From the IMG/VR virus record IMGVR_UViG_3300026290_000001: DNA of 64,000 nt, one strand, 5' to 3'. Source of the stretch: a virus. Under the pieces are notes generated by a model. The model worked only from the letters and a program-made list of their open reading frames with translations, searched no databases and was not told where the DNA came from. Below, one piece after another: positions 2,893 through 47,331 of this stretch. Positions within the stretch are counted from its first letter, which is position 1. Each line of letters begins with the position of its first letter. The translations under genes and the position numbers were made by a program.

Positions 2893-3609
2893 CTACTTCT
2901 TCAATTCTTTAAGTAAATATTCAACGGCATTATCAATTAAAACAGCACATTCTATTCGTGTAATACTACTATTAGGATCTAAAATCCCATCGCCTTTACC
3001 AGAAAGTATTTTCTTCTCATATAATCTATCTGCACTTTTTGCTCCCCAATGATCTTTAGGCAAGTCTTTAAAATACTTTGACATTTCTTCAATCACCTTA
3101 CCTTTCAACAATTCCTTCTGAACTTCATTTTTAAATTTATCCCATGTCCAACCTAAATGACCTGCTCTTATTAAACGTGGACAATTTTTTCCATTCCAAT
3201 CCCAATGCTGTCTTAATGATTCTACATTTTTATTTTTAGATTTTAATAATTCTGCCACAAGTAAAACTGCATTTTCTAATGTTTTTTGGTAATTCCCACT
3301 TTCACATATTTCAATTCCTATACTACGTCTATTACCAGCACCACTTCCTCCATCTCCTGCGTGCCAAGCATTTTCAAATAAAGGAATACATTCAATTGCT
3401 TGTTTTTCATCAATGGCAATATGATAACCTGTAGAAGATGTATTTGAAGGATTGGTTAAATAATCTCTTTCATTTCTTGCAGTAGATTTTGAATTCCCTG
3501 TGTTGTGAATAGTAATATATTCCCAATCCATTTTATATTTTGGACGTTTATTAGAATTCATAGGAATGTGATCTATTACATAAGGAAAAGGTAAATTAAA
3601 TTTACTCAT
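2893..3609 (-). CDS. endolysin: N-acetylmuramoyl-L-alanine amidase (Amidase_2/PGRP) with C-terminal SLH domain
   Basis: Catalytic domain segments YITIHNTGN, GYHIAIDE, WHAGD and NCP. The C-terminus FKDLPKDHWGAKSADRLYEKKILSGKGDGILDPNSSITRIECAVLI matches the S-layer-homology motif. Confidence 0.85.
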   Translation of the reverse strand: MSKFNLPFPYVIDHIPMNSNKRPKYKMDWEYITIHNTGNSKSTARNERDYLTNPSNTSSTGYHIAIDEKQAIECIPLFENAWHAGDGGSGAGNRRSIGIEICESGNYQKTLENAVLLVAELLKSKNKNVESLRQHWDWNGKNCPRLIRAGHLGWTWDKFKNEVQKELLKGKVIEEMSKYFKDLPKDHWGAKSADRLYEKKILSGKGDGILDPNSSITRIECAVLIDNAVEYLLKELKK

Positions 3610-12942: not shown

Positions 12943-13104
12943 AATTTATCACCTCCAACCTAATTTTTCAAAAAATAGAAAAATCAAAAATGTTCAAAAA
13001 TTTATCTTCTGTTTTCTCTTGTTTTCTTCCATTTACTCTGTTTTTCAAGCACAAAATTTGAATAAAAGGAATATTTTATTGTTGAGCCAAGAACACTCGT
13101 GACT

Positions 13105-14397
13105 TCAGTCATGAGATGAATTGGCTCTGTTCTGTTCATATATAATCCATGATTTTCTTGCATTAATTCTTTGCATGTTAGATATTTTCGGTGTCTTCAT
13201 ACCTCTGGGTGCATTACTAAAATCTATTTTTTCACCATCTATACCCATAAGAATGGCATAACCCGTAGACATTCTACCTTTAATAAAATATTCATTACCT
13301 ATATACCTTACTTTATCAAACTTCCTAAATCCTTCTATTTTACCTGTAGGTATCTTCTGATGACTTCTTACTCCTTTTGCCTGTTGGTAATCGCCTTTAG
13401 GGATACACTTTTTTAATACAGCTTTTTCAGTTTTAAAGCTTACATCAATTAACCCTATATCTTCAATATTATTTAAACAGGCAATAGCTACAGCATCGTA
13501 GTAATGCTCTTTTGGTAATCCCATTAGCTGTCTATGTTCTTTGGTAATAAATCCAAAGGTTTCTTTTGCATTTGGTAGCTGTCTTAATAATTGTTGTCTT
13601 ATACTATTCATCTGTGTTGTGTGTTTTAATTGTCCTTTAATTTTACCATTCTTCTTTAATTTAATTCCTCCTTTGTGCAAACTATTATGACAAGTTTTAC
13701 AAAGTGTAATTAAATTTTCTGCATCATCTGAGCCACCATTTTTTCTAAAAACTATATGATGTACCTCTAATCTGCTGTCTTTACTTTTTCCTTTGCAATA
13801 CTGGCAAATATATTTATCTCTACTTAATACATAAGCTTTAGTATTAGCAAATCCATAATTAGTTCCTTTTTGATAAAGCCATTTATTACTTAATACTGCT
13901 GGATTTTTTAAAGCATGTGGGTCAAATGTTGCTGTTTCTATTATTATATTTGTAATGGGCATTATTGATTTTGCAAAATCAATTTCTTTTAAGTGTGAAT
14001 TAATTTTACTTGTCATTGTAGGAGAAAATCTATCTTTTTTAATGCTGTTTTTCCTATTATTAAATCTAGGTTCCCTATATCTAGTTTTCCTATTCCTTCT
14101 AGTTCTCCTATATTTAGCTCTTTTGTCCATTTTGTCAGATATATCATTTCTAATTTCTACTTCTGATATATAATACACTTCATTTTCGTCATTTGCTACT
14201 GCACTTCCTATTTTACTACTACCAGTATCAATTCCTAAAGTTAAATCTTGTGTATAGTCTGTAGCATGATATAGTAATTTAATTGTAAATGGAGTTCTTC
14301 TTATGCATTTTGCTTTACCATCTTTTAACAATAATCTTGCTATTGCTGGTTTACAAGGCATTAAAGGACTCCCATCTTCATTAATTACATAAACCAT
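13105..14397 (-). CDS. iscB: IscB RNA-guided endonuclease (PLMP-RuvC-bridge helix-HNH-RuvC)
   Basis: Domains in order: PLMP (SPLMPCKPAIARLLLKDGKA), RuvC-I (LGIDTGSSKIG), Arg-rich bridge helix (RAKYRRTRRNRKTRYREPRFNNRK) and RuvC-II (IIIETATFD). Then HNH (CQYCKG..EVHHIVFRKNGGSDDAENLITLCKTCHNSLH), RuvC-III (EHYYDAVAIA) and a C-terminal beta domain (FDKVRYIGNEYFIKGRMSTGY). Confidence 0.9.
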   Translation of the reverse strand: MVYVINEDGSPLMPCKPAIARLLLKDGKAKCIRRTPFTIKLLYHATDYTQDLTLGIDTGSSKIGSAVANDENEVYYISEVEIRNDISDKMDKRAKYRRTRRNRKTRYREPRFNNRKNSIKKDRFSPTMTSKINSHLKEIDFAKSIMPITNIIIETATFDPHALKNPAVLSNKWLYQKGTNYGFANTKAYVLSRDKYICQYCKGKSKDSRLEVHHIVFRKNGGSDDAENLITLCKTCHNSLHKGGIKLKKNGKIKGQLKHTTQMNSIRQQLLRQLPNAKETFGFITKEHRQLMGLPKEHYYDAVAIACLNNIEDIGLIDVSFKTEKAVLKKCIPKGDYQQAKGVRSHQKIPTGKIEGFRKFDKVRYIGNEYFIKGRMSTGYAILMGIDGEKIDFSNAPRGMKTPKISNMQRINARKSWIIYEQNRANSSHD

Positions 14398-14681
14398 AAA
14401 ATCAAATCCTTTCGGATAAATACTCTGCTTAAAAGCAGGTTATGCGTATCTATATACTATTACCATATATAGAATTCGTCCTCATCTCGACAATGATAAA
14501 ATAGCTTATATGTATATCACACCGAGCCTTACCCTCCAACTCTACTTAGTGATATACGATAGAGCAATGGTCTGATGCGTCAACCAAAGGTATCATAACT
14601 ATTCTATCGTAGTATAAATTTCTCTATACTAAGTCTGGTGAACTTAGACTTTAGAAGCCTCCGACTTTAGTCGGGGGTAGT
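14398..14681 (-). ncRNA. candidate IscB omega-RNA scaffold
   Basis: Non-coding and visibly GC-richer than its surroundings, directly upstream of iscB. Minus-strand helices: CCCCCGAC/GUCGGAGG, AAGUCU/AGACUU, long-range CUACGAUAGA/UCUAUCGUA, CUGCU/AGCAG, and AUCC-GAAA-GGAU just before the start codon. Confidence 0.6.
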
Positions 14682-14927
14682 TCACTCTATTTCAGGATTG
14701 ATAGATAAATCATCTTTGCTTGTACTATTTACATTAGATAAATTATCTTCATTGGACAAATCATCATTAATAATTTGACTTAATTCGTCTATTTTAGAAC
14801 TTAATTTGATAATCTCTATCTGATACATATTATTTTGTAAACATAAAGTGACTACATCTAAGGGCAAATTACTATTGTTTATTAACTCTGCCAGTTTAAT
14901 ATTAAAATCACTTATAATAAAAATCAC
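14682..14927 (-). CDS. hypothetical protein
   Basis: 81-aa acidic ORF in the minus-strand tail array. Its TGA stop (14682-14684) directly abuts the omega-RNA-like region. Confidence 0.4.
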   Translation of the reverse strand: MIFIISDFNIKLAELINNSNLPLDVVTLCLQNNMYQIEIIKLSSKIDELSQIINDDLSNEDNLSNVNSTSKDDLSINPEIE

Positions 14928-14984: not shown

Positions 14985-15305
14985 CTATATTGTTATCTGC
15001 GCTTTTATTTCAATCCTACAAGTGTTATTAAAAATATCTTTGTTAATATTTATTACTTTTCCATCTAATAATCTATTTATCTCATTTTCGTATTTATCAA
15101 TAAAAACCACATCGATTTTATTATCTAGATTTAATTCTAAAAAACTACAAACATCTGAACTTTTATTTGTTGGGATTTGCCCTATAAATCTGTGATAATA
15201 AATATTTTCCATTTCATGATAATAAACATCTAAAGTTCCTTGTTGAAAATCGTCTGAATAGATATGGTTGTCTAGGCAATTAAATTTTATTTTTAATTTC
15301 ATCAC
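14985..15305 (-). CDS. hypothetical protein
   Basis: 106-aa ORF in the co-directional tail array. No motif recognised. Confidence 0.4.
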   Translation of the reverse strand: MMKLKIKFNCLDNHIYSDDFQQGTLDVYYHEMENIYYHRFIGQIPTNKSSDVCSFLELNLDNKIDVVFIDKYENEINRLLDGKVININKDIFNNTCRIEIKAQITI

Positions 15306-15335
15306 CTTCTTTCAAGTTTATTTATTTTTATATTG

Positions 15336-16262
15336 TTATTGAACTCCGTTTAATTTATCTTCAAGTGTTATAAAATATGAACCATACACTATATCACCTG
15401 GAATCCTATCTGTAATCCCTGTTGAATTCATATTTCCTATTGCTGTTCTTGCAATATTAAATTTCAAAGCAGTTAATGTTTTATTGCTAGATGAAACTTT
15501 TGCATTAGTTATATGATAAGATGTTCCACCTACTGTTACATATTCAGTTAAACCTTTGTAATTCCTAAACTCTACTATTTTATCAACAAACGAATTCCAT
15601 CGATCCCATGTCAAAGTTGTTACTGCACCATGATTATTGAAAGCATTTCTTTCTGCTGTAGTCCAAGACCAATTAGTAGGACGAGATTTTGAAGTAGTTA
15701 AATAAGTATAACCAGACCAATCCGAAACCTCATAATTATAATTACGATCCCTTGCTCTACATCTAAATCCATATTGTGTATTTGGTTGTAAATTATTAAA
15801 TGTGTCTGAAGGAGAATATGGTGAAGCAGTAATTCCATTAGTGCATTGAATATCATAAACATTAGCATTAGATACATTAGAATAGTTTATAGTAATTGAA
15901 TTAGAAGATATTGATGAACTAATATAATATGGTGTAGACAATTTTGATCTTGCTGTAGTTACATATATTGTATCTATTAAATACCAAGTTCCGTTCCATT
16001 TTCCAGATACTGAAACTTTATATTCAGTATTAGGTGTTAATTTTTGATATAAAGGAGGACTAGGCATTGAATTATAAATATCGTGCCATGTATTATAAGT
16101 AGAATTGGTTGATGTCCAATTATTCCAATATACATACTCTTGTGTACTTGACTTTACAAGCACAATCTCAAATCCACCATAATCTTTTGCAGGATATGTT
16201 AATTCAGTAACATTGATTCGCATAGAATTGGAAGTTACATTATTGGCATATATTCTAGCCAT
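15336..16262 (-). CDS. tail protein with two fibronectin type III-like domains
   Basis: Two FN3 signatures (LTPNTEYKVSVSGKW..YVTT and LQPNTQYGFRCRARD..WSGYTYLTT). Confidence 0.55.
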   Translation of the reverse strand: MARIYANNVTSNSMRINVTELTYPAKDYGGFEIVLVKSSTQEYVYWNNWTSTNSTYNTWHDIYNSMPSPPLYQKLTPNTEYKVSVSGKWNGTWYLIDTIYVTTARSKLSTPYYISSSISSNSITINYSNVSNANVYDIQCTNGITASPYSPSDTFNNLQPNTQYGFRCRARDRNYNYEVSDWSGYTYLTTSKSRPTNWSWTTAERNAFNNHGAVTTLTWDRWNSFVDKIVEFRNYKGLTEYVTVGGTSYHITNAKVSSSNKTLTALKFNIARTAIGNMNSTGITDRIPGDIVYGSYFITLEDKLNGVQ

Positions 16263-16345
16263 AAAATCACCTAAATTTCTTTATAATTGAATAAATTATT
16301 TAAAAAAGAATAATAATAATTAATAAGCAAAATAGTTAAATAGTA

Positions 16346-16374
16346 TTGTAAAAAATTAGATAATATGATAGTAT
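16346..16374 (+). promoter_or_regulatory. sigma-A-type promoter with extended -10 for the plus-strand moron
   Basis: TTGTAA (16346-16351), a 17-nt spacer, then TG-n-TAGTAT (-10 at 16369-16374). The 14-mer AATATGATAGTATA (16362-16375) is identical to 62502-62515. Confidence 0.5.
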
Positions 16375-16391
16375 AAATATATATTATTAAA

Positions 16392-16991
16392 ATGAAAGGA
16401 TGTATAATAATGAAAATTAAAAACTTATCTTATCTGTTTATTGGTTTGCTAGTTGGGTGTTTATTTCCCATTCAATCTTTATTTGCCGAACAACCTATTA
16501 CATTAATTATCAATGGTAAAACAATTACTAATGCTTCACCACAAATAGTTTCAGATAGAACGTATGTACCTTTGAGGGTAATATCCGAAGAATTAGGTGC
16601 AACAGTTGAATGGGACGGAGTAAATAGGGTAGTTAGGGTTAATAGTGGGGATGGACAAAAAATTGAAAAGATTAATCAAAATCAAACTCAAAACAATAAT
16701 GATAATAGTAATGTGGAGAGCAACCCTAGAGATAATATCAATTATATTAGTAGTGATGATATGGAAAAATATTACGAAAGAGATACAAATAAAGGTTTTG
16801 TAAAAAATCGTTGGGTAGATGGTAAATATTTTATTGACTATGATAGAAAAATTACACGTTTTGAAGATTATGAATATTATTATGATAGAGAAAGAGATAT
16901 ATTTTATTGGGCAGATTATAAGGCAATTTTAATCTTTGGAGAAACAATAAAAGATTATCCTAAATATAAATTTAACCAAATACAGCAGTAG
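16392..16991 (+). CDS. secreted lipoprotein with copper-amine-oxidase-N-terminal-like (stalk) domain; moron
   Basis: Only plus-strand gene in the tail module. Signal peptide with lipobox LLVGC (the likely start is the second ATG at 16410). Domain motif ITLIINGKTI..PQIVSDRTYVPLRVISEELGATVEWD. Has its own promoter and overlaps the convergent tail gene by 20 nt. Confidence 0.7.
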   Translation: MKGCIIMKIKNLSYLFIGLLVGCLFPIQSLFAEQPITLIINGKTITNASPQIVSDRTYVPLRVISEELGATVEWDGVNRVVRVNSGDGQKIEKINQNQTQNNNDNSNVESNPRDNINYISSDDMEKYYERDTNKGFVKNRWVDGKYFIDYDRKITRFEDYEYYYDRERDIFYWADYKAILIFGETIKDYPKYKFNQIQQ

Positions 16992-19845
16992 AAGAAATAG
17001 CATCTCCTTCAACTAAAACTCTTTTTGCTCCATACCAACTACTACCAACATAAACTTCATCACCTAATAAAACTTGATTAGCACTTATTTGTAAATGTGG
17101 ATAAGTAGAACCACCTGCTGAAATAATAACATTATGACCAGAAGTAGTGTACATTAAAATTTCTTTATTACTACTATTTTTTCCACCTATTTGCAAAGAA
17201 TTAAATGCAGTAAAATCTCCAGCAGTTATTTGATTAGCATATATTTTACCAGTAATAACATAATCTTTTCCTAATTGTGTAGTTAAGGCAGTATTAGTAA
17301 CATAGTTTGCTAAATCACCAGAATATACTAAATCTGTTGGTTTATCTATCACTTTGCCCCATGCTATATAAGCATTCGGACCCATTTGAATATTGTCACC
17401 AACAATTAACTCATTAACTTTTAGTTTATTTGCACCAACACTACCATTGGACAAATAATTACCATTGATTTTATTTAAAGAATCCAATACATTAGTACCT
17501 GCAATTTTTAAACTCGAACAATCTATATTACCTTGAATATCTGCTGATGTTGCCACTAAGTGACCTGAAAGGGAAACCCTGAAGGGTGCATAATTATAGT
17601 TACTACTACCTAAATATATTCCATTCGTGTCGGCTTTAAATATGGCATTACCCGATCCTATCTGCATATGTCCTTTTAATATTAAATTACCATCAATGTC
17701 AGCATATAATTTTTTGTTCCATTGAGAACCTTCATATTTTTCAATAGTGAATCCATCTGTTGCGTTAGATATGGAACGTACTTTATTGTCTGAACGGGTA
17801 ATTGTTAGTCCATCTGTTATATCTATTTTTACACCATTATAGAGTTTATTTTCTAAGAGTACTCCTTCTGCTAATTCTGAAACTGGTAATCCACCATCCG
17901 TTATTTGTAGGGAAAGACCTGAAATTTTTACTCCCGTTTCATTGACGGTGAAGAATTTTTTACCTTCGTTGTTTGATGCGTCTATTATGAGGTTTTGACC
18001 AATTAATAAAGTACCTAAAATTCTTTCTGCTACAATCCGATCTGGCAAAATCGCAGTATGAAATGTATTACCTCCATCTTGGGTAAGAGTAATTACACCA
18101 TGCATCATACGAATAAATTTATCAGAATCGTTCGGATCTATAATACTGATGCCTCTTCTATCAGTAATTACCGTCTCATTACCACAAGCAATTACTGCTT
18201 GTTTAGTAGCATCCCATGCATTATTTATAATTTTCTGTACTTCATTATTAGCATTTTCACCCAATGACCATTTATATTTTTCCATATCAACAGTAGTAGA
18301 TGTGCTCACTGCTTGATTTATTCTCTTTAAAAACAAATCATAATCACGATTAATATTTTCAATATTACTAATTACAAGATTGACACTATTTTCTTCAAAA
18401 TCAAAATCCATTTCAATAATTTTTGCCATAATGCTAATATCAAAAGTTTCATGGTCAATTCTAACCAAATCACCTAAAATCAATTTACCTTTATCTAATT
18501 GACAATCTTCATCTAAATATTGATCAATATTTATCGAATCTATCTCTATTAATATTTGTGGTGTATTTATTTTTACAAACTGTTCTTTACCCCAAGATAA
18601 TAATTCTTTAGCATCAAAGATGTATTGATTTTCAACAGTTTTTACAACTATATAATCAGTAAGTTCAAATAATTCAGATTGAGTAAAATTACTTTCCATA
18701 CGCAATGTGTCACCAAGAGAAATTATATTAGATTGTACAGAATTTATTTGTGATTGTTTATTACTAATTTCAGTGTTTTTATTATTTATTTCATTTTGTT
18801 TGGCAGATTGTTGTGCTAATAAATCATAAGCACTTTGACCCTTAGATTGTGCCAAATCTATATTGTCTTGAATTATTATTAATTCAGATTGTAGTGTAAT
18901 TAATTGACTATTTAAAATTATTAGTTCTGCTTCATATGTTTCTAATTGAGATAAATAACCTTGATATATACCATCATTATCTTGTAATTTTTTATTATAA
19001 GCCAATAAAGCATGACATAATTCATTGGACATATAATGACTACTTTGAATTACATTGCCTTGCTCATCTTCTGTATATGGATAAAGAAAATATCCAAAGT
19101 TATCTAAATAGTCAGTACCAGTTATATTGTATTCATTTATACTTAATCCCGATTTGCCATAAATTTTTAAACGAGTGCAAAAATCTGAATCATCCAAAGA
19201 TTGATTTAGTGATTTCAAATAGATACCATAATTAAAATTTAAACCAGTGTAGTTTCCGATTTGGTCTAATTTATAAAAACTTATCTTTTTATTTTCAGTA
19301 TCCCATTTAATAATTGCACTAAATGTTTCTGAAACTGTAAATATTGCATCTAGTACCGTAGCAGAAGTAATTTCTAACATGCGAAATTTAGTGTCGAACT
19401 CTGAATTCACGTACCCCAAAGACCATGTAGTTTCCTTTAACAAATCGGTCATTATTTGTGATAATGTTTTGGATTCAACTTTATATCCTCTAATTAAATT
19501 ATCTTTTAATTTAAAGGGGAGAGAAAAACATTCCACTTGAAACGAATCTATATCTTCACCCATATTTTGAATTGGTTTTTGTATAATAAACCATTCAATT
19601 TTATTATTATATTCAAATTTTATTAGGTATTTATAACGAATCATATTAAGATGTTTGTTATAAACTAATTCGTTCTCTATTTCAATATATAAAGGAAGAT
19701 CAAACGATAATTCTGAAATATTACCAAGTTTACAGTTATATTGTATATTAAATGCCTGATTAGATAAATCTGCAATAATATTTCTATCAGGTTTTGTAAG
19801 ATATAGTTTTGGTTTTTGTAGTAAGTCTATTATAAATATCACCAC
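16972..19845 (-). CDS. tail-associated minor structural protein (prophage tail endopeptidase / Tal-like)
   Basis: 957 aa immediately after Dit. The N-terminal region is of the phage minor-structural-protein type, followed by a central coiled coil (LETYEAELIILNSQLITLQSELIIIQDNI) and a C-terminal beta-rich domain. Confidence 0.7.
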   Translation of the reverse strand: MVIFIIDLLQKPKLYLTKPDRNIIADLSNQAFNIQYNCKLGNISELSFDLPLYIEIENELVYNKHLNMIRYKYLIKFEYNNKIEWFIIQKPIQNMGEDIDSFQVECFSLPFKLKDNLIRGYKVESKTLSQIMTDLLKETTWSLGYVNSEFDTKFRMLEITSATVLDAIFTVSETFSAIIKWDTENKKISFYKLDQIGNYTGLNFNYGIYLKSLNQSLDDSDFCTRLKIYGKSGLSINEYNITGTDYLDNFGYFLYPYTEDEQGNVIQSSHYMSNELCHALLAYNKKLQDNDGIYQGYLSQLETYEAELIILNSQLITLQSELIIIQDNIDLAQSKGQSAYDLLAQQSAKQNEINNKNTEISNKQSQINSVQSNIISLGDTLRMESNFTQSELFELTDYIVVKTVENQYIFDAKELLSWGKEQFVKINTPQILIEIDSINIDQYLDEDCQLDKGKLILGDLVRIDHETFDISIMAKIIEMDFDFEENSVNLVISNIENINRDYDLFLKRINQAVSTSTTVDMEKYKWSLGENANNEVQKIINNAWDATKQAVIACGNETVITDRRGISIIDPNDSDKFIRMMHGVITLTQDGGNTFHTAILPDRIVAERILGTLLIGQNLIIDASNNEGKKFFTVNETGVKISGLSLQITDGGLPVSELAEGVLLENKLYNGVKIDITDGLTITRSDNKVRSISNATDGFTIEKYEGSQWNKKLYADIDGNLILKGHMQIGSGNAIFKADTNGIYLGSSNYNYAPFRVSLSGHLVATSADIQGNIDCSSLKIAGTNVLDSLNKINGNYLSNGSVGANKLKVNELIVGDNIQMGPNAYIAWGKVIDKPTDLVYSGDLANYVTNTALTTQLGKDYVITGKIYANQITAGDFTAFNSLQIGGKNSSNKEILMYTTSGHNVIISAGGSTYPHLQISANQVLLGDEVYVGSSWYGAKRVLVEGDAISSTAVFG

Positions 19846-19864: not shown

Positions 19865-20638
19865 CTAATAAAATCTGAATTCATATTTCATGTCCAAAAA
19901 ACACTTGCCATCAACCTTTAGTCTATTTTTACCATAAGGCAAACTCATATAATAATTATTTATAAGTTTGTCATATCTATAAATAGGTGGAGGTGTGCTT
20001 TCTAACGAACTTTCTATATTTCTTCTCTTACAATCGATTTGTACAATTTCATTATCTTCTAATTCTGAAAATCCAAATTCTTTACCGTTAGATAAATTTA
20101 AAATAGATACTTTACCTTTTTCTAGTTTTTTAATTGTTATTATAGGTAAAACATCCACATCTCCTAAATTATTAAATACAAAATGATTAGTACTTTCTTT
20201 GCTAAAATCATAAGATTCTAAATAGATATGCGAATGTGCATAAGAACTCTTACATCTAAATTGACAAGTTATATAACCTTGATTTATACCATTATGAGAT
20301 ATTTGTGGATCAGAAATTAAAATACAATAATAAATTTTATCAGGATTTTCCGAAAAACGCATTTTAGCATAATATGGTTTTCTTAACCATCGTTTAACCC
20401 TTTGTAAAGATTCTTCCGTCCATCCCTTTTTAAAAGCAAAAACTAAATCCAGTATTAAAGGTTTTGGTTTAACTTCTTGAAAATAAGGTTCATTTCTACC
20501 ACGTATTTCAGTTTCAATTATTTCTACTTCTGCTACAAAAGGTTCTTCTGTCATTCCAGAAGAAAGATTACAATTTATAATATCGTAATCATATGAATAT
20601 TCATTATCAAATTCAAAATACGCAGAATCTTTTATCAT
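19865..20638 (-). CDS. distal tail protein (Dit-like)
   Basis: 257 aa directly downstream of the tape measure and upstream of the Tal-like gene, the canonical siphovirus order TMP-Dit-Tal. Confidence 0.65.
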   Translation of the reverse strand: MIKDSAYFEFDNEYSYDYDIINCNLSSGMTEEPFVAEVEIIETEIRGRNEPYFQEVKPKPLILDLVFAFKKGWTEESLQRVKRWLRKPYYAKMRFSENPDKIYYCILISDPQISHNGINQGYITCQFRCKSSYAHSHIYLESYDFSKESTNHFVFNNLGDVDVLPIITIKKLEKGKVSILNLSNGKEFGFSELEDNEIVQIDCKRRNIESSLESTPPPIYRYDKLINNYYMSLPYGKNRLKVDGKCFLDMKYEFRFY

Positions 20639-20652: not shown

Positions 20653-20688
20653 TTAAAACAAAACAGAAGGGGAGTAGATACCCCTTCT
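20653..20688 (-). terminator. intrinsic terminator between tape measure and Dit
   Basis: Minus strand reads TAGAAGGGGTATCTACTCCCCTTCTGTTTTGTTTT: an 8-bp GC-rich stem overlapping the TMP stop codon, followed by a U-run. Confidence 0.7.
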
Positions 20689-23600
20689 ATTTACCAAGTT
20701 TACTCATTCCATTATTTATCCGTTTAAAGAAACCATCAACACCTTTTTCTGTGTTTTCTACTTTATCTATATGAACATTCATATTATAAGTTACGTTACC
20801 TCCACCAGCAAACTGTAATTGTGGAGTTGCATTGGCAATTAATTTTTGCATATTAGGAATTAGATATCTTTCAATATTTTTTGGTGGAATTAAAATTTCA
20901 TTTGTTAGTGCTTTGATTATATGTTCATTGGCACTGGTATTGAAAAATTTATTAAATTTATCAACAAAACCAAATGATTTATCTCCGACTATACCACCTT
21001 CATGATATATCCTAATTTGTCTTTTCTTTTCATCCCATTCTACTTGATGACCTAATGCTTCTGCAACTTCCCTGATAGAAAGATATGTTGTTCCGTCAAC
21101 ATTTTTAGCTGGTTTAAATCTCTTTCCACCAATTATAATTGTCTGGTTTTGTCCATAACCTTCCCAATCAGCAGATGCTCCTAAAAGTGATGCAAGAAGT
21201 CTAGATTGCATAATTGCTCTATTATTGACAAGTTCAAAAGAACCAGAATCCAATACTGCCATAGGTTGTCTACCAGATGTGTTAGAACTAGGATTAGTAC
21301 TTTCCAAAGAGGGAATAGACATATTCGCACTATTTGCACTTTCTAATAATGCTAATGCCTGTTCCATTTTTGTAATTAAATTAGCACTAATACTATTACC
21401 AATAAACTCTAAATTGCCATTTACAAAAGTTTTAAATTCTGCAAAAGCTGATTTAACTTTATCAATATTACCATTTATAATATCAGAACGAATTTGGGCA
21501 AACTTTTGTTCGTCATTAATTAAATCGTCATAGTGTTTTTCGGTTTCTCTTTTAATTCTATCCAACCTATCTTTTTCTAAGTTAAGTTTAGTATCTTCTG
21601 CTTTTTTCTTTGCATCAATATCTTTTTTATAAGCATCTAATTGGTCTTTAAGATTTTCTTTACGTAAATCAATTGAATGGTCATGTTGATATTCATTAAT
21701 TTCATCCTCTTGTTCTGCCAATTGTTTTATTAATTCTGCTTTTTTTGCTTTTGCTTCAAAAGAATCATCTAATGATAAAACGTCAATATTTTTTTGAGTT
21801 TCTAATATTGCTTTTTGTTTCTTTTCCAATTCACGATTATAATCATGCTCATTTTCTTCTCTATCTAGTGCTTTGATTCGTGCATTGATGTAATCTTCAA
21901 ATTGTTTTAATTCATCATCAAGATTATCAGTTGCTTGTTTATGACGTTTTTCTTCTGCTTTCATTTGTTCATCTATGGCATCTAATGCAACTTGTTTTTG
22001 TTTTTCATAGATATTTTTATAGATAGAGATGATTTCGTCTGCTATGGATGCTAGTTGTTGTTTGATAGAGAATTGGAGATTGATATATTCTTGCTTTAGT
22101 TGTTTTAAAGTATTTATCAATTCTTGTTTTTGGTCAGCATTGTATCTATCACTTGCTAATTCCTGTTGAACTAATGCTATTTTATTTCTTAAAATATTAA
22201 CACTTTCAATATTAATTTGATTTTCTCGTTCTAATAATGCAATATATTCAGCAGACCCTTTTTCTAATAAAGACATTTCATTTCTAAGGTTTTCTTTTTC
22301 TTGAGTTAAATCAGATAGTTTAATATCTTCAATTGATAAATTAATTTTAAATTCAGCAAAACTCAAATCTCTTATTTCATCATCTATACCTTGAATTTCT
22401 TTTTTAAGACCTTCTGCACTATCTTTGAGTTTTTTAAAATCTTCAATCGCTTTTGCAATTTTTTCATTCTTTATATCAACTTCAATTGTATCTGTTGAAC
22501 CAGACATTATTTTGTTAAAGTCAGATTCAGACAACCCTTTTCCAATATAAGACCGTAGATTCTGTTCTGCTTGTTTTAGACTTGAATCAAAAGTGTTATT
22601 TATATCTAAAAGCAGGTTTTGTTTTTTTTGTAATAAAAGTATCATTTGGTCATATATTTCTGTTTTTTGTTCAAAAGAAGTTACATCGTCAAGTTGATCT
22701 TTAAAAGTTTCTATTTCTCTGTTAATTGCTTCGAGTGCTTCTTTCCAAACTTCAAAGGTTTTGGTAAAGGATTTGGAGGATTTAGAGGAAGAACCATATC
22801 TATCTAAAGAACTAGATACATTAAGATTTTTAAACTTAGATGCCATATCTCTAGTGGCTTTTTGAAATTCAGCATAATCTTTAAGCATCTGGTTTGTTTT
22901 AGAATCAACAGCTAAAGCACTACCGCTTTCAATACGTCTAAAATCACCCATACTCGAAGGATTTACTAATAGCGTACCTGCATTAAAAGCATCAAAATAT
23001 TTCGCCCATTCAGAACCTAATTTGCTTATTAATTGCAATTCAATTGCTTCTCTTGCTTGAGCTAAATTTGCCCATTGAGTTACATTATTGCCATATAATT
23101 TTGATAAATGATTAAATAATTCAGCATGGTTATTTTTAACACTGTTATAGAAATTAATATCTTGTTCTTTAGTTTTTATAAAGGCATCATAAATTGCATT
23201 TTGGTAATCTTCTGTGTCTTTGACAAGTTGTTGTCTTAATTTGGACTCATCTTCAAGTAGAGGAATATAATCTTGATAATCAGATATTATTTTTTCTATT
23301 GAAGATTGAGTAAGACCTTTGTCAGATAATTCATCAAGAAAACCTTTTAGGTCTTTTATTTTAGATACATTGTCTTTGTAAGTGGTTTGAAAATCGGAGA
23401 GAGCTTTTTCATATTGATTTAAAGTATTAATCGCATTTTTTGAATCAATAGTAGAAGGATATAGTGATGCAAAATTAATAGCAAATTCTTTTAAATCGGG
23501 ATTACCTTTAGTTAATGTATTAATTAAATTAGTTATTTCCTTAGATGTTTTTGATAATCCATCTCTATTTTTCTTAGAATCATCGCCACTATTAATAGCA

Positions 23601-26600
23601 GAAGTTAATTTATTATATTGTTCAATTAAAGAATCTAAATCAGAATTAGCAACTTTAGTAGCAAAATCACTTAATGCTTGTTGTTGAGTTTCTATATCTT
23701 CGGGTTGTAAAGCAAGTGATTTAGCAAATTCGGAAACAACTAATTTGGCAGAATCAGACATTTCCTTACCATTAGATTCTAAAGTTTTAATGGTTTCTTG
23801 CGCTTCGTATTCTAAATATTTTTGTTTGTTTTTAGAAAGATTATATATTTCTTCTTGTTGTCTTTGATATATATCTTTCCAATCTTCTAATTTTCTGAGG
23901 TTATACCATTCAGTTCCTTTATTATTATCAATCATTAATTGATATTCTTCTATACGTTTTTCTGCGGTGTCTCTGAGGTTAATTGCTTTTTTAATTTCTT
24001 TATTAGTTTGTTTATCTGATGCTTTAACTTTAAATTCTAATAATTCCTGTTCTTTTTTTAATTCTTCATCTAAAGCCAAAATTCTTAGTTTAATTACTTC
24101 TATAGAATCAGAATAAGCTTCTCCTTCAAGATTAATACCAGTAGCAGATACACCATATTTATCAACAAGTTCTTTTTGAATTTCTAATAATCGTTTCTTT
24201 TCTTCGGTAGTTGCGGTAAGATTTTTCTCTTTATCTTTAAGAGTTTCATATTCAGAAGTTAATTCTTTTAACCCCTCTTTTTGTTGTTTTAAATTTTGTA
24301 TTTGATTTTGACTTGTTTCTATTTGTTTTTGTTGTTCTTCTCTATGTTTTTTAGTAGCATTAGTGAGTCCATAAATAGCAACCATTGCAGTTGTTGCAAC
24401 AACTGCCAATAATCCTAATGGATTTGTTGCCATCGTTGCTTTTAAAAAATTCATTGCAGCAGTAAGTCCTTGTGTTGTTGTCAATAATGCTAAAAGGGAA
24501 ATATTGGCAGCATTAGTAGTAGTAATGAATGCGATCATTGCTTTTATACTAGAAGTAATAGCAGTTCCTTTCCAAATTAAAAAAGCCGTAGTTAAAAGTG
24601 CTACAACAACTTCTGCATTTCCAAGAACTTCAACTAAAGTTGTCATAGCAATTACAAAACCTTTAATTACGTCAGAATTTAATGCTTCTTGCCATTTCCC
24701 CATTACTGTGTTTTTGAATTGTGCAGATTTTGCCTCAATTGATTCCATATACTTTTCGTTTTCAATTAAAGCAGAATTTGTCGAATTTAAGGCAGTAGTT
24801 AGAGAGTCCTGCATATCCTTGTAATTAGTCATCATAGCCATTACTATGTTTCCTTGTCTTTTTCCTGCGACAAGTTCCGACATATTAGCCCTCTGTACGT
24901 CTGTAAGTTTTTCCCAAACTAAGGCTAATTCTAACATAATGTCATAGGTGGATTTAAAGGTATTTTCATCTTTGCGAATTTGAATACCAATATTTTTAAA
25001 TGATTCTTCAAGTTTAGGAAGATATTCTAAAACATCTTCACCATCTTCGGATACACCTCTAAGTCTCATTGAAATTGTTTTGAGGGCTGTTCCTACGGTT
25101 GCTGGGTCTTGTACCACTGCGTTAGCAGCAGTTATCAATGCAACTGCTTCTTCCATTGTATTGCCAGCAGAATATAATGAAGCAGCAGATCTACGCATAG
25201 CTTCACCAATACCTGCACTTGAAATTGCAAAATTATTTCCAACTTCATTATAAATATCTACAATTTTCTGTATATTTCTACCTTCTTCATCTACTGCAAC
25301 ACCAAAACCTTTTACTGCTGAAATAATTGCTAGACTAGCTTCTTCTACTCCAATATCACCTACATTAGAATATAATAATGCTTGTTTTGCTAATTGAGCA
25401 GATTGTTCAAGGGAATAACCCAAACGGGCAAACTCTGTCGTACTATTAATAACTTCCACACTAGTTTTTGCCAAATTTCGACCTATAGCATTTGCCTCAA
25501 GTGAAAATTTATTTAATGTTTCTCTAGTTTCGTCAGTAACTTTATTCAAATTTGTGAGAGCAGTATCTATGTCGATGATACTTTGAATACCATTTTTTAC
25601 TGCTGTTATTGTTTTGATTATTACATCACCGATGAGCAACCAACTAGCGAATTTCTTGCCCGCTTCAAGTAAACTTTGTCCAAAAAGTCCAGTATATTTA
25701 TTAGCATCTTGAATTTCTTTCTTATAAATACTTGTGGTAGTAGAAATTTCTCTAAGTTTAGAATTGGCTTCTGCCATATTCTTACTGAAATTTTTATTAG
25801 TTGGATCAAAACCACGTATTTGAGATTCAAGAGTATTTAAAGCACTTAAATTATCACCAACAATAAACTTTCCATCTACACCTCTCATGCCCCTGATTCT
25901 ATTTAATAAATCTTGTTGAGCAAGAGATTGTTTATGTATTTCACTTGTTAACTTTTGCTGTTGAATAATATCTTTATCAATATTTTTTGCTTTTATTGTA
26001 CCAACATTCCGTAATGTTTGTTCTCTAATTTTTTCAAGTTGAATTAATTTTTCAGCTTCTATTCCTTCTATTTTGGTTTTTTCACCAATGTCAATTTTTC
26101 TTCTAATAATATTATTATATTGACCTTGATGATAGGTTATTTGTTTAGTTAATTCTTTTGCCTGTTCTGTATCTTTATTTCCTAAACTATGATAATCTTG
26201 TCTTAATTTATTTAATTGTGTTAAATGCTGTTTGGCTTCATTAAAATTTTTATTTTGTGTATTTTTAATAGTTTCTAAATTAGTTTTTTCAAGATTATCA
26301 TAATAATCTGCCATTTTAACCAGTTCATCTGGTTTCTTTGTCATATCACCTACAGTTTCTTTAACTCTCTGTGACCAATATTTGGACTGTTCTTTATTTA
26401 ATTTTTCTAACTCTGTACGTTGTTTTTTATAATTAATAGTAGTTTCTGTTACTTTTTTATATACTTCGTCTGTTCCTGCTTTTAAATGTTCAATTTGTTT
26501 TACACTCTCACCATTTGCTTTTGTCCACTCTTTAGTTCTTTCAGTAATTTTTGCTTCAGCATTTTCAATTTGTACATATTTTTCTTTATACTTGTCTAAA

Positions 26601-26731
26601 CCCTTACTATCAACATCAATTTTTATTTTAGGATTAACTCGTTGTTCAATATCTTTTTTTACTTTATTTAGTTCTGATTCTGATGCTCTATCTAATAACG
26701 TTTTTATTCGGATTACAATATCATCTGCCAC
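20687..26731 (-). CDS. tail tape measure protein (2014 aa)
   Basis: Long coiled coils and a TP901-type core (NEVGNNFAISSAGIGEAMRRSAASLYSAG). Central hydrophobic helices. The C-terminus carries a copper-amine-oxidase-N-like motif (IIIGGKRFKPAKNVDGTTYLSIREVAEALGHQVEWD). Confidence 0.95.
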   Translation of the reverse strand: MADDIVIRIKTLLDRASESELNKVKKDIEQRVNPKIKIDVDSKGLDKYKEKYVQIENAEAKITERTKEWTKANGESVKQIEHLKAGTDEVYKKVTETTINYKKQRTELEKLNKEQSKYWSQRVKETVGDMTKKPDELVKMADYYDNLEKTNLETIKNTQNKNFNEAKQHLTQLNKLRQDYHSLGNKDTEQAKELTKQITYHQGQYNNIIRRKIDIGEKTKIEGIEAEKLIQLEKIREQTLRNVGTIKAKNIDKDIIQQQKLTSEIHKQSLAQQDLLNRIRGMRGVDGKFIVGDNLSALNTLESQIRGFDPTNKNFSKNMAEANSKLREISTTTSIYKKEIQDANKYTGLFGQSLLEAGKKFASWLLIGDVIIKTITAVKNGIQSIIDIDTALTNLNKVTDETRETLNKFSLEANAIGRNLAKTSVEVINSTTEFARLGYSLEQSAQLAKQALLYSNVGDIGVEEASLAIISAVKGFGVAVDEEGRNIQKIVDIYNEVGNNFAISSAGIGEAMRRSAASLYSAGNTMEEAVALITAANAVVQDPATVGTALKTISMRLRGVSEDGEDVLEYLPKLEESFKNIGIQIRKDENTFKSTYDIMLELALVWEKLTDVQRANMSELVAGKRQGNIVMAMMTNYKDMQDSLTTALNSTNSALIENEKYMESIEAKSAQFKNTVMGKWQEALNSDVIKGFVIAMTTLVEVLGNAEVVVALLTTAFLIWKGTAITSSIKAMIAFITTTNAANISLLALLTTTQGLTAAMNFLKATMATNPLGLLAVVATTAMVAIYGLTNATKKHREEQQKQIETSQNQIQNLKQQKEGLKELTSEYETLKDKEKNLTATTEEKKRLLEIQKELVDKYGVSATGINLEGEAYSDSIEVIKLRILALDEELKKEQELLEFKVKASDKQTNKEIKKAINLRDTAEKRIEEYQLMIDNNKGTEWYNLRKLEDWKDIYQRQQEEIYNLSKNKQKYLEYEAQETIKTLESNGKEMSDSAKLVVSEFAKSLALQPEDIETQQQALSDFATKVANSDLDSLIEQYNKLTSAINSGDDSKKNRDGLSKTSKEITNLINTLTKGNPDLKEFAINFASLYPSTIDSKNAINTLNQYEKALSDFQTTYKDNVSKIKDLKGFLDELSDKGLTQSSIEKIISDYQDYIPLLEDESKLRQQLVKDTEDYQNAIYDAFIKTKEQDINFYNSVKNNHAELFNHLSKLYGNNVTQWANLAQAREAIELQLISKLGSEWAKYFDAFNAGTLLVNPSSMGDFRRIESGSALAVDSKTNQMLKDYAEFQKATRDMASKFKNLNVSSSLDRYGSSSKSSKSFTKTFEVWKEALEAINREIETFKDQLDDVTSFEQKTEIYDQMILLLQKKQNLLLDINNTFDSSLKQAEQNLRSYIGKGLSESDFNKIMSGSTDTIEVDIKNEKIAKAIEDFKKLKDSAEGLKKEIQGIDDEIRDLSFAEFKINLSIEDIKLSDLTQEKENLRNEMSLLEKGSAEYIALLERENQINIESVNILRNKIALVQQELASDRYNADQKQELINTLKQLKQEYINLQFSIKQQLASIADEIISIYKNIYEKQKQVALDAIDEQMKAEEKRHKQATDNLDDELKQFEDYINARIKALDREENEHDYNRELEKKQKAILETQKNIDVLSLDDSFEAKAKKAELIKQLAEQEDEINEYQHDHSIDLRKENLKDQLDAYKKDIDAKKKAEDTKLNLEKDRLDRIKRETEKHYDDLINDEQKFAQIRSDIINGNIDKVKSAFAEFKTFVNGNLEFIGNSISANLITKMEQALALLESANSANMSIPSLESTNPSSNTSGRQPMAVLDSGSFELVNNRAIMQSRLLASLLGASADWEGYGQNQTIIIGGKRFKPAKNVDGTTYLSIREVAEALGHQVEWDEKKRQIRIYHEGGIVGDKSFGFVDKFNKFFNTSANEHIIKALTNEILIPPKNIERYLIPNMQKLIANATPQLQFAGGGNVTYNMNVHIDKVENTEKGVDGFFKRINNGMSKLGK

Positions 26732-27163: not shown

Positions 27164-28201
27164 TTACAAATCACTTAAAGATTTATTTTCTACTTGTTTA
27201 ATCCCATCTTCATCAAAATACTTACCTAATTCCTCATCTATCTCAGTGTCATTATATAATGACACCATATTCGTACTCTCCCAGCCAACTACATCTTTAA
27301 TTACATCTGCTGGAATATTTGCTTGGCAAAGTGCGGTTGTAAAATAATGTCTATTTGAATGCCAATACCAATCTATACCTAAAATATTAGAAAAAGTTAT
27401 TGCCCAAGAATTTAATAAAGATATAGTGCCTGGTTTCCATACACTATTTCTTTTATTCCAAAATAACTCTTCCCCTTCAATGCCTAATTCTTCACGTTGC
27501 TTCATCCATAAATCAAAATAAGGTTTAAATTTAGAAACCAAGATATACCTATAAATCATTTTACCCTTAGAACTTCTACCCTTTGTTTTTATCTTTTCAG
27601 GAGTTTTATATAAAGCACCGTATTTAATATTTTCTTCTGTAAAATGACTTACTTTAAACCTTAATAATTCTGCCTTTCTTGATCCACTACTTACTGCCAA
27701 TGCAACTGCACATGCTTGTTGATATTTGCCTTTTTCAACTAAATAATTAAGCAATTCGTCAACTTGTTCATCTGCAAGGACAGTTTTATCCCTAACATTT
27801 ACTTTTACTGGTGCAGGGATTTTATTAACTATATTGCGAAAATTAGGGTGAATGTCATCTAGCATTGCCTCTATATAATTAGACATACTACTAATTGCTG
27901 ACTTCAATCTTCTTACTCTATTAGGACTAAGATTTTGTGTATTCACAAGCCAATTCTGATATTTTAAAATATCACGTTTAGTAAAATCTATAAAAAATTT
28001 ATTATCATTATATTGTAAATTCCATACCCAACAAATTTCAATATCATTTTCATAACCTTTTATAGTGGCATGAGACATATCTTTCCCTCTGCAATAATCT
28101 AAAAATTCATTAAGTAAATCTTTATTTTCTTTTGAAACTCGTTTCCACAATTCAGGAGTTACAATTGTATGTTGTTCGGTTTTCCTTGCGATTATAATCA
28201 C
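27164..28201 (-). CDS. tyrosine recombinase embedded in the tail module
   Basis: Catalytic segments SSGSRKAELL, WHSNRHYFTT and GWESTNMVSLY, plus a core-binding-like N-terminus (ATIKGYENDIEICWVW). The start is non-canonical: the GTG lies inside the SD-like AAGGAAGTG, and ATC occupies the position where the sibling leader has ATG. Confidence 0.8.
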   Translation of the reverse strand: MIIIARKTEQHTIVTPELWKRVSKENKDLLNEFLDYCRGKDMSHATIKGYENDIEICWVWNLQYNDNKFFIDFTKRDILKYQNWLVNTQNLSPNRVRRLKSAISSMSNYIEAMLDDIHPNFRNIVNKIPAPVKVNVRDKTVLADEQVDELLNYLVEKGKYQQACAVALAVSSGSRKAELLRFKVSHFTEENIKYGALYKTPEKIKTKGRSSKGKMIYRYILVSKFKPYFDLWMKQREELGIEGEELFWNKRNSVWKPGTISLLNSWAITFSNILGIDWYWHSNRHYFTTALCQANIPADVIKDVVGWESTNMVSLYNDTEIDEELGKYFDEDGIKQVENKSLSDL

Positions 28202-47255: not shown

Positions 47256-47331
47256 TGGAGCCGAGTATAGGATTTGAACCCATAATCTGTTGTTTACAAG
47301 ACAACTGCCTTATCAATTTGGCTAACCCGGC
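47256..47331 (-). tRNA. tRNA-Thr (anticodon UGU), CCA encoded
   Basis: Minus strand folds by hand as GCCGGGT-TA-GCCA..AGGC-A-GTTGT-CTTGTAA-ACAAC-AGATT-ATGGG-TTCAAAT-CCTAT-ACTCGGC-TCCA. It has a 7-bp acceptor stem, a TTCAAAT T-loop and an anticodon loop with U33 followed by UGU. Confidence 0.85.

What the first reader, a model, noticed from the sequence alone, without database searches (positions are those of the whole stretch)
16346..16991. Plus-strand lipoprotein moron shares its domain type with the tape-measure C-terminus: candidate injection-blocking (Sie) factor
Seen in sequence:
- This is the only plus-strand gene in the 45-kb structural array. It has its own sigma-A-like promoter.
- It carries a lipobox signal peptide (LLVGC).
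- It has a copper-amine-oxidase-N-terminal-like domain (LIINGKTI..SDRTYVPLRVISEELGATVEWD).
- The same motif type occurs near the C-terminus of the 2014-aa tape measure protein (IIIGGKRF..DGTTYLSIREVAEALGHQVEWD, coding about 21005-21142).

Established knowledge: prophage lipoproteins such as Ltp of S. thermophilus phage TP-J34 block DNA injection by interfering with the incoming phage's tape measure protein.

Inference: the moron may mimic the TMP terminal domain at the membrane or wall and exclude superinfecting relatives.
Basis: partly seen in the sequence, partly recalled or inferred. Interest (0 to 1): 0.55.

Follow-up and report, generated by a model that had tools for sequence, protein, structure and literature searches.

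The report
Secreted stalk-domain accessory gene beside tail tip
A large SPbeta-like phage carries, on the opposite strand inside its tail genes, a separately transcribed gene for an exported cell-envelope protein with a conserved "stalk" repeat and a swappable head; the tape measure protein has the same domain type, but nothing shows that the small protein copies it.

Summary
The sequence observations hold.
- 16410-16991(+) is the only credible plus-strand gene in about 58 kb of minus-strand genes.
- It has an extended -10 promoter that is conserved across relatives.
- It has a signal peptide and one Cu_amine_oxidN1 (PF07833) repeat.
- The 2014-aa tape measure protein (TMP) carries a two-repeat PF07833 domain at aa 1821-1911.

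New findings:
- The gene belongs to a family with a near-identical N-terminal module (signal peptide plus stalk repeat), a linker, and at least seven unrelated C-terminal heads.
- A secreted stalk gene lies convergent with the 3' end of the Tal gene (the YomG-like tail-tip gene) in four phage lineages (25-45% GC).
- A second insertion site lies near the portal gene.

- The lipobox Cys is missing in about half of the relatives, while a signal peptidase I site is always present.
- The stalk repeat is closer to bacterial proteins than to the TMP domain, and shows no within-phage co-evolution with it.
- The gene has no Ltp domain.

My best reading is an exported envelope protein whose variable head, not the stalk repeat, sets specificity. 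Superinfection exclusion is plausible but untested, and TMP mimicry is a minority possibility. The C-terminal head is an orphan domain. Interest is moderate.

The parts
16346..16374 (+). Sigma-A-type promoter with extended -10: TTGTAA, 17-nt spacer ending in TGA, then TAGTAT. It ends 35 nt before the ATG.
   Evidence: The same architecture is found upstream of homologues in 10 of 14 loci examined, including non-alignable ones. The strict pattern occurs 0.023 times per 150 nt in the window. In the 45% GC locus L015, similarity to the window starts at the -35 element.
16396..16400 (+). Ribosome-binding site AAGGA, 9 nt before ATG 16410.
   Evidence: Read directly from the sequence. AGGAG-like motifs sit at the same place in homologues.
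16410..16487 (+). Signal peptide, aa 1-26. It contains lipobox LLVG-C17 (Cys codon 16458-16460) and an SLFA|EQP signal peptidase I-type site.
   Evidence: The lipobox pattern matches, but the Cys is not conserved. A26 is invariant and the cleavage-type site is present in all 24 relatives.
16488..16649 (+). Single Cu_amine_oxidN1 (stalk) repeat, aa 27-80. This is the conserved module of the family.
   Evidence: Pfam PF07833 scores 54.5 bits. Nucleotide identity to L006, L009, L102, L104 and L105 is 92-99% and stops at about 16650. The AF2 topology is b-b-b-b-a-b-b at pLDDT 64-73.
16650..16724 (+). Asn/Gln-rich low-complexity linker, aa 81-105.
   Evidence: pLDDT is below 50. Relatives have N/Q-rich or Pro-rich linkers at the same place.
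16725..16991 (+). Aromatic-rich, beta-rich C-terminal head (aa 106-193) and stop codon. It is an orphan domain and the swappable part of the gene. Its last 20 nt overlap the 3' end of the Tal gene.
   Evidence: Among 1.84 billion representatives there is only one real relative (P0023, 45% identity, same architecture). Close copies are P0002 and P0006. At least seven unrelated heads occur in relatives. Similarity to L107 ends at the stop codon.
16972..19845 (-). Tal, the tail-tip protein (YomG_N plus Prophage_tail domains), convergent with the stalk gene. Its last 75-160 aa (about 16975-17450) vary between relatives, apart from the ..AVFG end.
   Evidence: Pfam and PHROG hits. Variable and conserved blocks mapped by blastn. 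Tal tips compared across loci.
19865..20638 (-). Dit-like distal tail protein.
   Evidence: Pfam DUF6558_C/SPP1_Dit.
20687..26731 (-). Tape measure protein, 2014 aa.
   Evidence: PhageMin_Tail scores 89 bits.
20999..21271 (-). Two-repeat stalk domain of the TMP (aa 1821-1911), followed by an invariant IYHEGGI motif.
   Evidence: PF07833 scores 31.5 bits on repeat 2. BLASTP finds both repeats. AF2 gives two b-b-b-a-b-b units at pLDDT 65-85. The domain is conserved in L009, P0025 and L195/L196.
15336..16262 (-). Divergent neighbour: a 308-aa fibre-like protein with a weak fn3 hit. Its N-terminus is conserved and its C-terminus varies among relatives.
   Evidence: fn3 E=0.0019, below the cut-off. 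Block structure.

Best explanation
The gene is a separately transcribed accessory gene, moron-like but conserved within its clade. The clade is a group of about 135-kb SPbeta/Sundance-like siphophages of low-GC anaerobic Bacillota.

The product is exported by the Sec pathway. In this phage it may also be lipid-anchored at Cys17. It consists of:
- one stalk repeat, which by analogy with the single-repeat domain of Paenibacillus lautus SOD most likely makes a homodimer, and/or tethers the protein to the wall as stalk domains of wall hydrolases are presumed to do;
- a flexible N/Q-rich linker;
- a small aromatic-rich head.

The promoter, signal peptide and stalk repeat form a constant chassis. 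Recombination exchanges the head, and the adjoining Tal tip is exchanged as well.

Inferred function: the protein sits on the envelope of the infected or lysogenic cell and changes how phage tails meet that envelope. This would be superinfection exclusion in the broad sense, by blocking adsorption or DNA entry, or by preventing progeny from binding debris. Specificity would reside in the variable head, as in the wall-anchored, variable-C-terminus protein CwpV.

Shown: anatomy, export signal, promoter, family mosaicism and synteny. Inferred: dimerisation or wall tethering, surface location and the exclusion function.
For: - Domain, signal peptide and coordinates.
- Promoter conserved by architecture.
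- Constant N-terminal module (92-99% nucleotide identity) against unrelated heads.
- A secreted stalk gene convergent with, and abutting, the Tal 3' end in four lineages: the window group (L009, L102, L104, L105, L106, L112), L120/L128, L195/L196 and L129. Tal identity between lineages is 33-41% and GC ranges from 25 to 45%.
- Further copies in morphogenesis modules near the portal gene.
- Stalk domains sit N-terminal to glucosaminidase wall hydrolases (L016 and L136 by Pfam; L019 by its close similarity to L016). [quoted passage not shown] PF07833 is also listed among the predicted wall-binding modules of Paenibacillus wall hydrolases.
- A single-repeat PF07833 domain drives homodimerisation in a crystal structure (PMC10432803). 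8imd is the top, non-significant, hit by sequence and fold.
- Precedent for a conserved wall anchor plus a variable C-terminus that blocks siphophage DNA entry: CwpV (PMC4737114).
Against: - There is no functional data.
- No known defence or Sie model matches.
- The head is an orphan and its model has low confidence (pLDDT about 50-64), so nothing indicates what it binds.
- The head type does not strictly co-vary with the Tal tip. L104 and L106 share a tip but differ in head. L105 and L106 share a head type but differ in tip. L107 has the window-type head at the portal site.
- A family member lies in a non-phage mobile-element context (L014), so the protein need not act on phages.
- Four samples carry a copy with the stalk repeat deleted, so the gene is dispensable.
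- It is not shown that the phage is temperate or that the gene is expressed in lysogens.
Confidence: 0.4

Rival explanations
1. The exported stalk repeat imitates, or pairs with, the stalk domain near the TMP C-terminus of an incoming related phage. This blocks channel formation or DNA injection, making the protein Ltp-like in effect.
For: - The domain type is shared within one tail module.
- A TMP stalk domain and a stalk gene convergent to Tal co-occur in the window, L009 and L195/L196.
- The part of the small protein conserved across phages is exactly the stalk repeat.
- Single stalk repeats can pair with one another (PMC10432803).
- Ltp and HK97 gp15 show that exclusion proteins can target the TMP.
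Against: - The TMP repeat is closer to bacterial stalk proteins than to the small protein.
- There is no within-phage co-evolution.
- The TMP already has two repeats, which AF2 models as one compact unit.
- Diversification lies in the head, not the stalk.
- The lipid anchor is not conserved.
- There is no Ltp domain.
- Co-occurrence in two or three related lineages can be shared ancestry.
Confidence: 0.12
2. A lysogenic-conversion or cargo surface protein that benefits the host and is unrelated to phage exclusion. Possible roles include adhesion or aggregation, wall remodelling, or binding of an environmental ligand by the variable head. It would be carried by phages and other mobile elements.
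For: - Stalk-domain secreted proteins are abundant bacterial surface proteins.
- The closest non-phage relatives (55-61% identity, including the signal peptide) are in Syntrophomonadaceae MAGs. One of them lies next to a relaxase, an SLH protein and an LRR-stalk protein.
- The gene has its own sigma-A-type promoter.
Against: The position immediately convergent to the Tal 3' end is kept in four diverged phage lineages, and other copies lie inside morphogenesis modules. This argues for a phage-related role. Cargo genes usually sit at genome ends or in lysogeny modules.
Confidence: 0.22
3. An egress helper. The protein is exported during lytic growth and coats wall receptors of the dying cell, so that released virions are not lost on debris. 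This resembles T5 Llp in logic.
For: - The gene is adjacent to the variable, presumably receptor-binding Tal tip and to a variable fibre-like gene.
- The variable block spans both the head and the Tal tip.
- The endolysin has an SLH module, which implies abundant wall-polymer ligands on debris.
Against: - There is no strict head-tip co-variation.
- The head shows no similarity to any virion protein in the same locus.
- The sigma-A-type promoter, opposite to the late operon, suggests expression independent of late genes.
Confidence: 0.14

Closest known systems
Ltp of Streptococcus thermophilus phage TP-J34 (Pfam PF07553, Sie lipoprotein; PMC3952083)
   Same: A small phage-encoded protein with an N-terminal export or lipobox signal. 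It is proposed to act outside the membrane against incoming phage, and it has moron character.
   Different: There is no Ltp repeat domain (no Pfam hit at E<=1). The gene sits in the tail module convergent to Tal, not in the lysogeny module. The lipobox Cys is not conserved among relatives. The target is unknown.
CwpV of Clostridioides difficile (PMC4737114)
   Same: The architecture is a conserved N-terminal part plus antigenically variable C-terminal types. In CwpV the C-terminal part carries anti-siphophage activity that blocks DNA entry.
   Different: CwpV is host-encoded, large and phase-variable, and is anchored by its N-terminal domain (the CWB2 assignment is from memory). Here the protein is 193 aa and phage-encoded, with a PF07833 repeat and no CWB2 hit. 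Its function is untested.
T5 Llp, phi80/N15 Cor and HK97 gp15 (exclusion genes embedded beside tail, RBP or fibre genes; recalled from general knowledge, gp15 also cited)
   Same: A gene with its own promoter beside the host-recognition genes. It encodes an envelope protein, and it lies next to a variable receptor-binding region.
   Different: Those are Gram-negative outer- or inner-membrane proteins with no sequence relationship. Strict pairing with the receptor-binding protein was tested here and not found.
Bacterial secreted PF07833 'stalk-domain' proteins, such as P. lautus PaSOD (PDB 8IMD; PMC10432803) and the wall hydrolases of D. reducens (PMC4137172)
   Same: A signal peptidase I signal followed directly by a stalk repeat and then an unrelated functional domain. 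In PaSOD a single repeat acts as a dimerisation module.
   Different: The C-terminal head here is an orphan domain. The gene is phage-borne, has a fixed position next to Tal, and shows cassette-like head exchange.
SPbeta YomI/CwlP-type tape measure proteins with C-terminal wall-hydrolase domains (the Sundance TMP is annotated 'SPbeta phage protein, lytic transglycosylase')
   Same: A very long TMP of a 120-170 kb siphophage with a wall-related globular domain near its C-terminus.
   Different: This TMP has a non-catalytic two-repeat stalk domain and no detectable hydrolase domain. No cultured-phage TMP matches this region.

Membership tests
Cu_amine_oxidN1 / stalk domain (PF07833) | Score above the Pfam gathering threshold (24.2 bits) | tested here: met
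   Small protein 54.5 bits; TMP 31.5 bits.
Cu_amine_oxidN1 / stalk domain (PF07833) | Complete two-repeat domain (profile about 1-108) | tested here: not met
   The small protein matches profile positions 2-75, and only one b-b-b-b-a-b-b unit is folded. The TMP has two repeats. Full-length examples for comparison: L136, L095, L096.
Bacterial lipoprotein (signal peptidase II substrate) | Lipobox [LVI][ASTVI][GAS]C after a positive n-region and a hydrophobic h-region, with the Cys at position 15-35 | tested here: met
   MKIK-NLSYLFIGL-LVG-C17.
Bacterial lipoprotein (signal peptidase II substrate) | The acylated Cys is conserved among orthologues | tested here: not met
   The Cys is present in about 12 of 24 relatives and replaced by S, I or L, or absent, in the rest. 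Some near-identical signal peptides differ only in having LLVGS. The xFA|E/D site is present in all.
Bacterial lipoprotein (signal peptidase II substrate) | Actual lipidation and globomycin-sensitive processing | not testable with these tools
   This needs labelling or mass spectrometry. SignalP and LipoP were not available.
Ltp-type superinfection exclusion lipoproteins (PF07553) | Ltp repeat domain | tested here: not met
   Pfam scan at E<=1 lists only PF07833 and two sub-threshold hits. No PADLOC or NCBIfam hit.
Ltp-type superinfection exclusion lipoproteins (PF07553) | Blocks DNA injection, with escape mutations in the TMP | not testable with these tools
   This requires a cultured host-phage pair.
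Moron (independently transcribed insert between conserved phage genes) | Own promoter | tested here: met
   Extended -10 promoter architecture conserved in 10 of 14 loci examined. The module boundary in L015 lies at the -35 element.
Moron (independently transcribed insert between conserved phage genes) | Own terminator | tested here: not met
   No terminator-like site in 15300-17600. The gene's 3' end overlaps or abuts the Tal 3' end in all loci.
Moron (independently transcribed insert between conserved phage genes) | Absent at that position in otherwise syntenic relatives | tested here: inconclusive
   It is absent after Tal in Brevibacillus phage Sundance. Within its own clade it is present at this position in four diverged lineages, so it behaves more like a conserved accessory gene.
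Receptor-blocking partners of receptor-binding proteins (T5 Llp / Cor type) | Encoded next to the receptor-binding tail gene | tested here: met
   It is convergent with the variable Tal tip and next to a variable fibre-like gene.
Receptor-blocking partners of receptor-binding proteins (T5 Llp / Cor type) | Variant type co-varies with the receptor-binding variant | tested here: not met
   L104 and L106 have a similar Tal tip but different heads. L105 and L106 have related heads but different tips. L107 carries the window-type head at the portal site. The sample is small.

The most novel reading that the evidence does not exclude
Half-domain poisoning. The exported protein carries one stalk repeat, a unit known to pair with a second repeat to form the complete fold. 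The TMP of this phage clade must refold a two-repeat stalk domain outside the cytoplasm once it leaves the tail. On this reading, the resident phage's single repeat, concentrated at the membrane or wall, would pair with a repeat of the incoming TMP and stop it maturing into a conduit. That would be exclusion by domain complementation. The variable head would add a second, lineage-specific contact. If so, the stalk domain would be a previously unrecognised functional element of tape measure proteins in anaerobic Bacillota phages.
Probability: 0.1. Interest if true: 0.75.

Novelty: new variant of a known kind. Interest (0 to 1): 0.45.

Why it matters
Exclusion and surface-conversion genes of phages infecting strictly anaerobic Bacillota are almost unknown. 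This locus has four points of interest:
1. It defines a compact, recognisable cassette (promoter, signal peptide, stalk repeat, exchangeable head) that recurs at fixed places in the morphogenesis modules of a phage clade.
2. It shows that PF07833, a very common but functionally obscure surface-protein domain, has been recruited into a tape measure protein. Full-text searches found no paper linking copper amine oxidase domains with tape measure proteins. No cultured-phage TMP matched this region.
3. It offers a natural set of head variants for testing specificity.
4. If the protein does exclude phages, it would be a new Sie type for Gram-positive anaerobes.

If the protein does not exclude phages, it is still a marker of modular exchange at the tail tip.

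Tried and rejected
- Cultured-phage comparison. The region (megablast), the small protein and the TMP C-terminus (tblastn) found nothing in 50,697 phage records. A two-repeat stalk protein found only one unrelated Moorella phage gene, in a replication module.
- Structure. The AF2 model of the small protein is poor (pLDDT 55.6). Foldseek against the PDB gave no significant hit for it or for the TMP C-terminus. No fold is claimed for the head.
- Head as a decoy copy of a receptor-binding domain. Rejected: no head type resembles any virion ORF in its own locus.
- Strict pairing of head with Tal tip. Rejected on the few loci available.
- Carry-over of a Tal fragment with the cassette in L107. A tblastx hit suggested it, but the nucleotide alignment shows similarity stops at the stop codon.
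- Polymorphic-toxin reading (constant N-terminus, variable toxic C-terminus). Rejected: no toxin domain, no adjacent immunity gene, and the gene abuts Tal.
- Known defence systems. No PADLOC or NCBIfam hit.
- Metagenome scan with the N-terminal profile. It returned mostly generic stalk proteins and only a few useful loci.
- Composition. The gene has the same GC content as its surroundings, so there is no sign of recent foreign origin.
- Weak hits of the head to choline-binding and WW-like hairpins (E=0.2-0.7) are not significant.

Full report
**1. What is in the window**

The window is a 28.7% GC phage genome segment in which almost all genes are on the minus strand.
- Around the finding, on the minus strand, lie a 2014-aa tape measure protein (TMP; 20687-26731, PhageMin_Tail), a Dit-like protein (19865-20638), a Tal protein (16972-19845; YomG_N plus Prophage_tail; phrog_6211) and a YomF_N protein further on.
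- The exact gene occurs on metagenomic contigs of 135-138 kb.
- The nearest cultured relatives of Tal are 120-170 kb siphophages: Brevibacillus phage Sundance, Tsamsa-like phages and SPbeta-like phages, at about 34% identity.
- The endolysin (2893-3609) is Amidase_2 plus SLH.

**2.

- *Gene.* ORF 16410-16991(+) encodes 193 aa. AAGGA lies 9 nt before the ATG.
- *Strand.* It is the only plus-strand ORF between about 2 and 60.7 kb with coding-like codon bias.
- *Domains.* Pfam gives Cu_amine_oxidN1 (PF07833) at 54.5 bits for the small protein and 31.5 bits for TMP aa 1876-1911, against a cut-off of 24.2. Pairwise BLASTP gives 40% identity over 47 aa (E=4e-7) and reveals a second, weaker repeat just upstream in the TMP. 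No third copy exists in the window.
- *TMP structure.* An AF2 model of the TMP C-terminus folds aa 1821-1911 into two b-b-b-a-b-b units at pLDDT 65-85. The rest of the model is disordered.
- *Promoter.* In AT-rich DNA a generic promoter scan is uninformative: 11 sites against 17 expected. Comparison settles it. TTGTAA, a 17-nt spacer containing TGA, then TAGTAT at 16346-16374 has counterparts (TTGNNN, 17-nt spacer, TGn-(T/A)AnnnT) upstream of homologues in 10 of 14 loci examined. Several of these do not align with the window. The strict form of the pattern occurs only 0.023 times per 150 nt in the window.
- *Terminator.* None is present. The gene's last 20 nt overlap the end of Tal.

**3. The lipoprotein claim is only half right**

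LLVG-C17 fits lipobox rules. Among 24 relatives the Cys is replaced by Ser, Ile or Leu, or is absent, in about half. Some of these signal peptides are otherwise identical (LLVGSLFPIQSLFAEQP). An xFA|E/D signal peptidase I-type site directly before the first beta-strand is present in all, and A26 is invariant. Export is therefore the conserved property. Lipid anchoring may apply in this phage but does not define the family.

**4. The gene belongs to a mosaic family**

- Twenty-two homologues share aa 1-80 at up to 96% identity but carry at least seven unrelated C-terminal parts.
- At the DNA level, similarity to relatives runs up to about 16650 (aa 80). It disappears across the head and the last 75-160 codons of Tal (16650 to about 17200-17450), then resumes.
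- All Tal proteins end in ..AVFG.
- The window's head (aa 106-193) is rich in Tyr, Trp and Phe and is predicted to be beta-rich. It is an orphan: among 1.84 billion representatives, only one genuine relative was found, with the same overall architecture and Ser instead of Cys.
- The cassette boundaries are sharp. In the 45% GC locus L015, similarity starts at the -35 element. In L107 it ends at the stop codon.

**5. Position is conserved**

- A secreted stalk gene convergent with, and overlapping or within about 130 nt of, the Tal 3' end is found in the close group L009, L102, L104, L105, L106 and L112.
- The same holds for L120/L128 (stalk repeat 38-41% identical, Tal 33-37%, with one small extra ORF between), for L195/L196 (Tal 37-41%) and for L129 (44.5% GC).
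- A second site lies between the portal gene and a YomX-like gene (L006-8, L107, L011-13). In an isolate prophage a two-repeat version lies between terminase and portal.
- Sundance has no such gene after Tal.
- One relative lies in a non-phage mobile-element context in a Syntrophomonas MAG.
- Four samples carry a copy in which the stalk repeat is deleted.

**6. Testing the TMP-mimicry idea**

*For the idea:*
- The TMP stalk domain is itself conserved in L009 (about 80%), P0025 (32%) and L195/L196 (35-40%), and is followed by an invariant IYHEGGI motif.
- Every lineage in which both genes are visible has both.

*Against the idea:*
- The TMP repeat scores 25-27 bits against bacterial stalk proteins and only 21 bits against the small protein, even though the comparison set was collected by similarity to the small protein.
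- Smith-Waterman scores show no within-phage convergence. The L195 protein scores 37 against its own TMP but 67 against the window's TMP.
- The closest non-phage relatives of the small protein match it at 55-61% identity, signal peptide included.
- The family diversifies in the head, not in the stalk.
- There is no Ltp domain and no hit to any PADLOC or NCBIfam model.

**7. What the stalk repeat probably does**

- PF07833 is listed among the predicted wall-binding modules of Paenibacillus wall hydrolases.
- Here it precedes glucosaminidase domains in L016 and L136, and apparently in L019.
- In P. lautus SOD a single-repeat PF07833 domain forms the homodimer interface, and the dimer partly reproduces the two-repeat amine-oxidase domain (PMC10432803). 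That entry (8imd) is the best, though non-significant, match to the small protein by sequence and fold.
- The single repeat here is therefore most simply a dimerisation and/or wall-tethering chassis that presents two heads on flexible linkers. This is inference.

**8. Most likely mechanism and rivals**

I favour an exported envelope protein that alters phage-envelope encounters, with specificity in the exchangeable head. This is architecturally like CwpV, whose variable C-terminal part blocks siphophage DNA entry (PMC4737114). By position it also resembles exclusion genes embedded beside tail genes. Confidence in this reading is 0.4.

The rivals are:
- a host-benefit surface cargo protein (0.22);
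- an egress or debris-masking helper (0.14);

None can be settled without expression data or a cultured system.

**9. Novelty**

Full-text searches found no paper that combines copper amine oxidase domains with tape measure proteins, and little on this domain in phages. The cassette, its fixed position next to Tal and the stalk-bearing TMP appear undescribed. The general category, a separately transcribed phage gene for an envelope protein beside tail genes, is well known. I therefore rate it a new variant of a known kind, of moderate interest.

Noticed in passing
window 13080-14686 (-): An IscB-type gene (RRXRR plus HNH, 430 aa, 13105-14397) with its HEARO/omega RNA (14475-14685, Rfam 121.7 bits). 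The whole element is a precise insertion relative to locus L104 and is absent from L009. It is therefore a recently mobile IscB element inside a phage tail module.
   Followed up: partly
window 5113-6117, 27164-28201, 59714-60592 (all -): Three tyrosine recombinase genes in one phage segment. One lies between the TMP gene and the upstream tail genes.
   Followed up: no
window 2893-3609 (-): The endolysin has Amidase_2 plus a single SLH domain, which implies a host with SLH-binding secondary wall polymers.
   Followed up: no
window 20999-21271 (-) and L009, L195, L196, P0025: The TMP stalk domain and the following invariant IYHEGGI motif are conserved down to 32-40% identity. No peptidoglycan hydrolase domain was detected in this TMP, whereas the TMP of the related phage Sundance is annotated as a lytic transglycosylase.
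   Followed up: partly
L108-L111 (about 880-1370): Four independent samples carry a version of the stalk gene with a deletion of about 107 nt. It removes the stalk repeat and leaves the head as a separate 109-aa ORF (P0006).
   Followed up: partly
L120 3970-4305 (-), L128 4337-4687 (-): An extra 111-116 aa minus-strand ORF lies between Tal and the stalk gene. It has no signal peptide and only a weak stalk-like motif (7 bits), and might be a virion-side partner.
   Followed up: partly
L096 10016-10864 (+): In an isolate prophage (IMG/VR), a secreted two-repeat stalk protein lies between the terminase and portal genes. This shows that stalk genes are inserted at several points of morphogenesis modules.
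   Followed up: partly
L014 9968-18713: A Syntrophomonas MAG region has a family member next to a MobA/MobL relaxase, an SLH protein and an 864-aa BspA-LRR protein with a stalk domain. The context is a non-phage mobile element.
   Followed up: partly
window 47259-47331 (-): A phage-borne tRNA gene (Rfam 65 bits).
   Followed up: no
window 15336-16262 (-) and L102, L104, L106: The fibre-like gene divergent from the stalk gene has a conserved N-terminus and a variable C-terminus. The stalk gene therefore sits between two variable host-recognition regions.
   Followed up: partly
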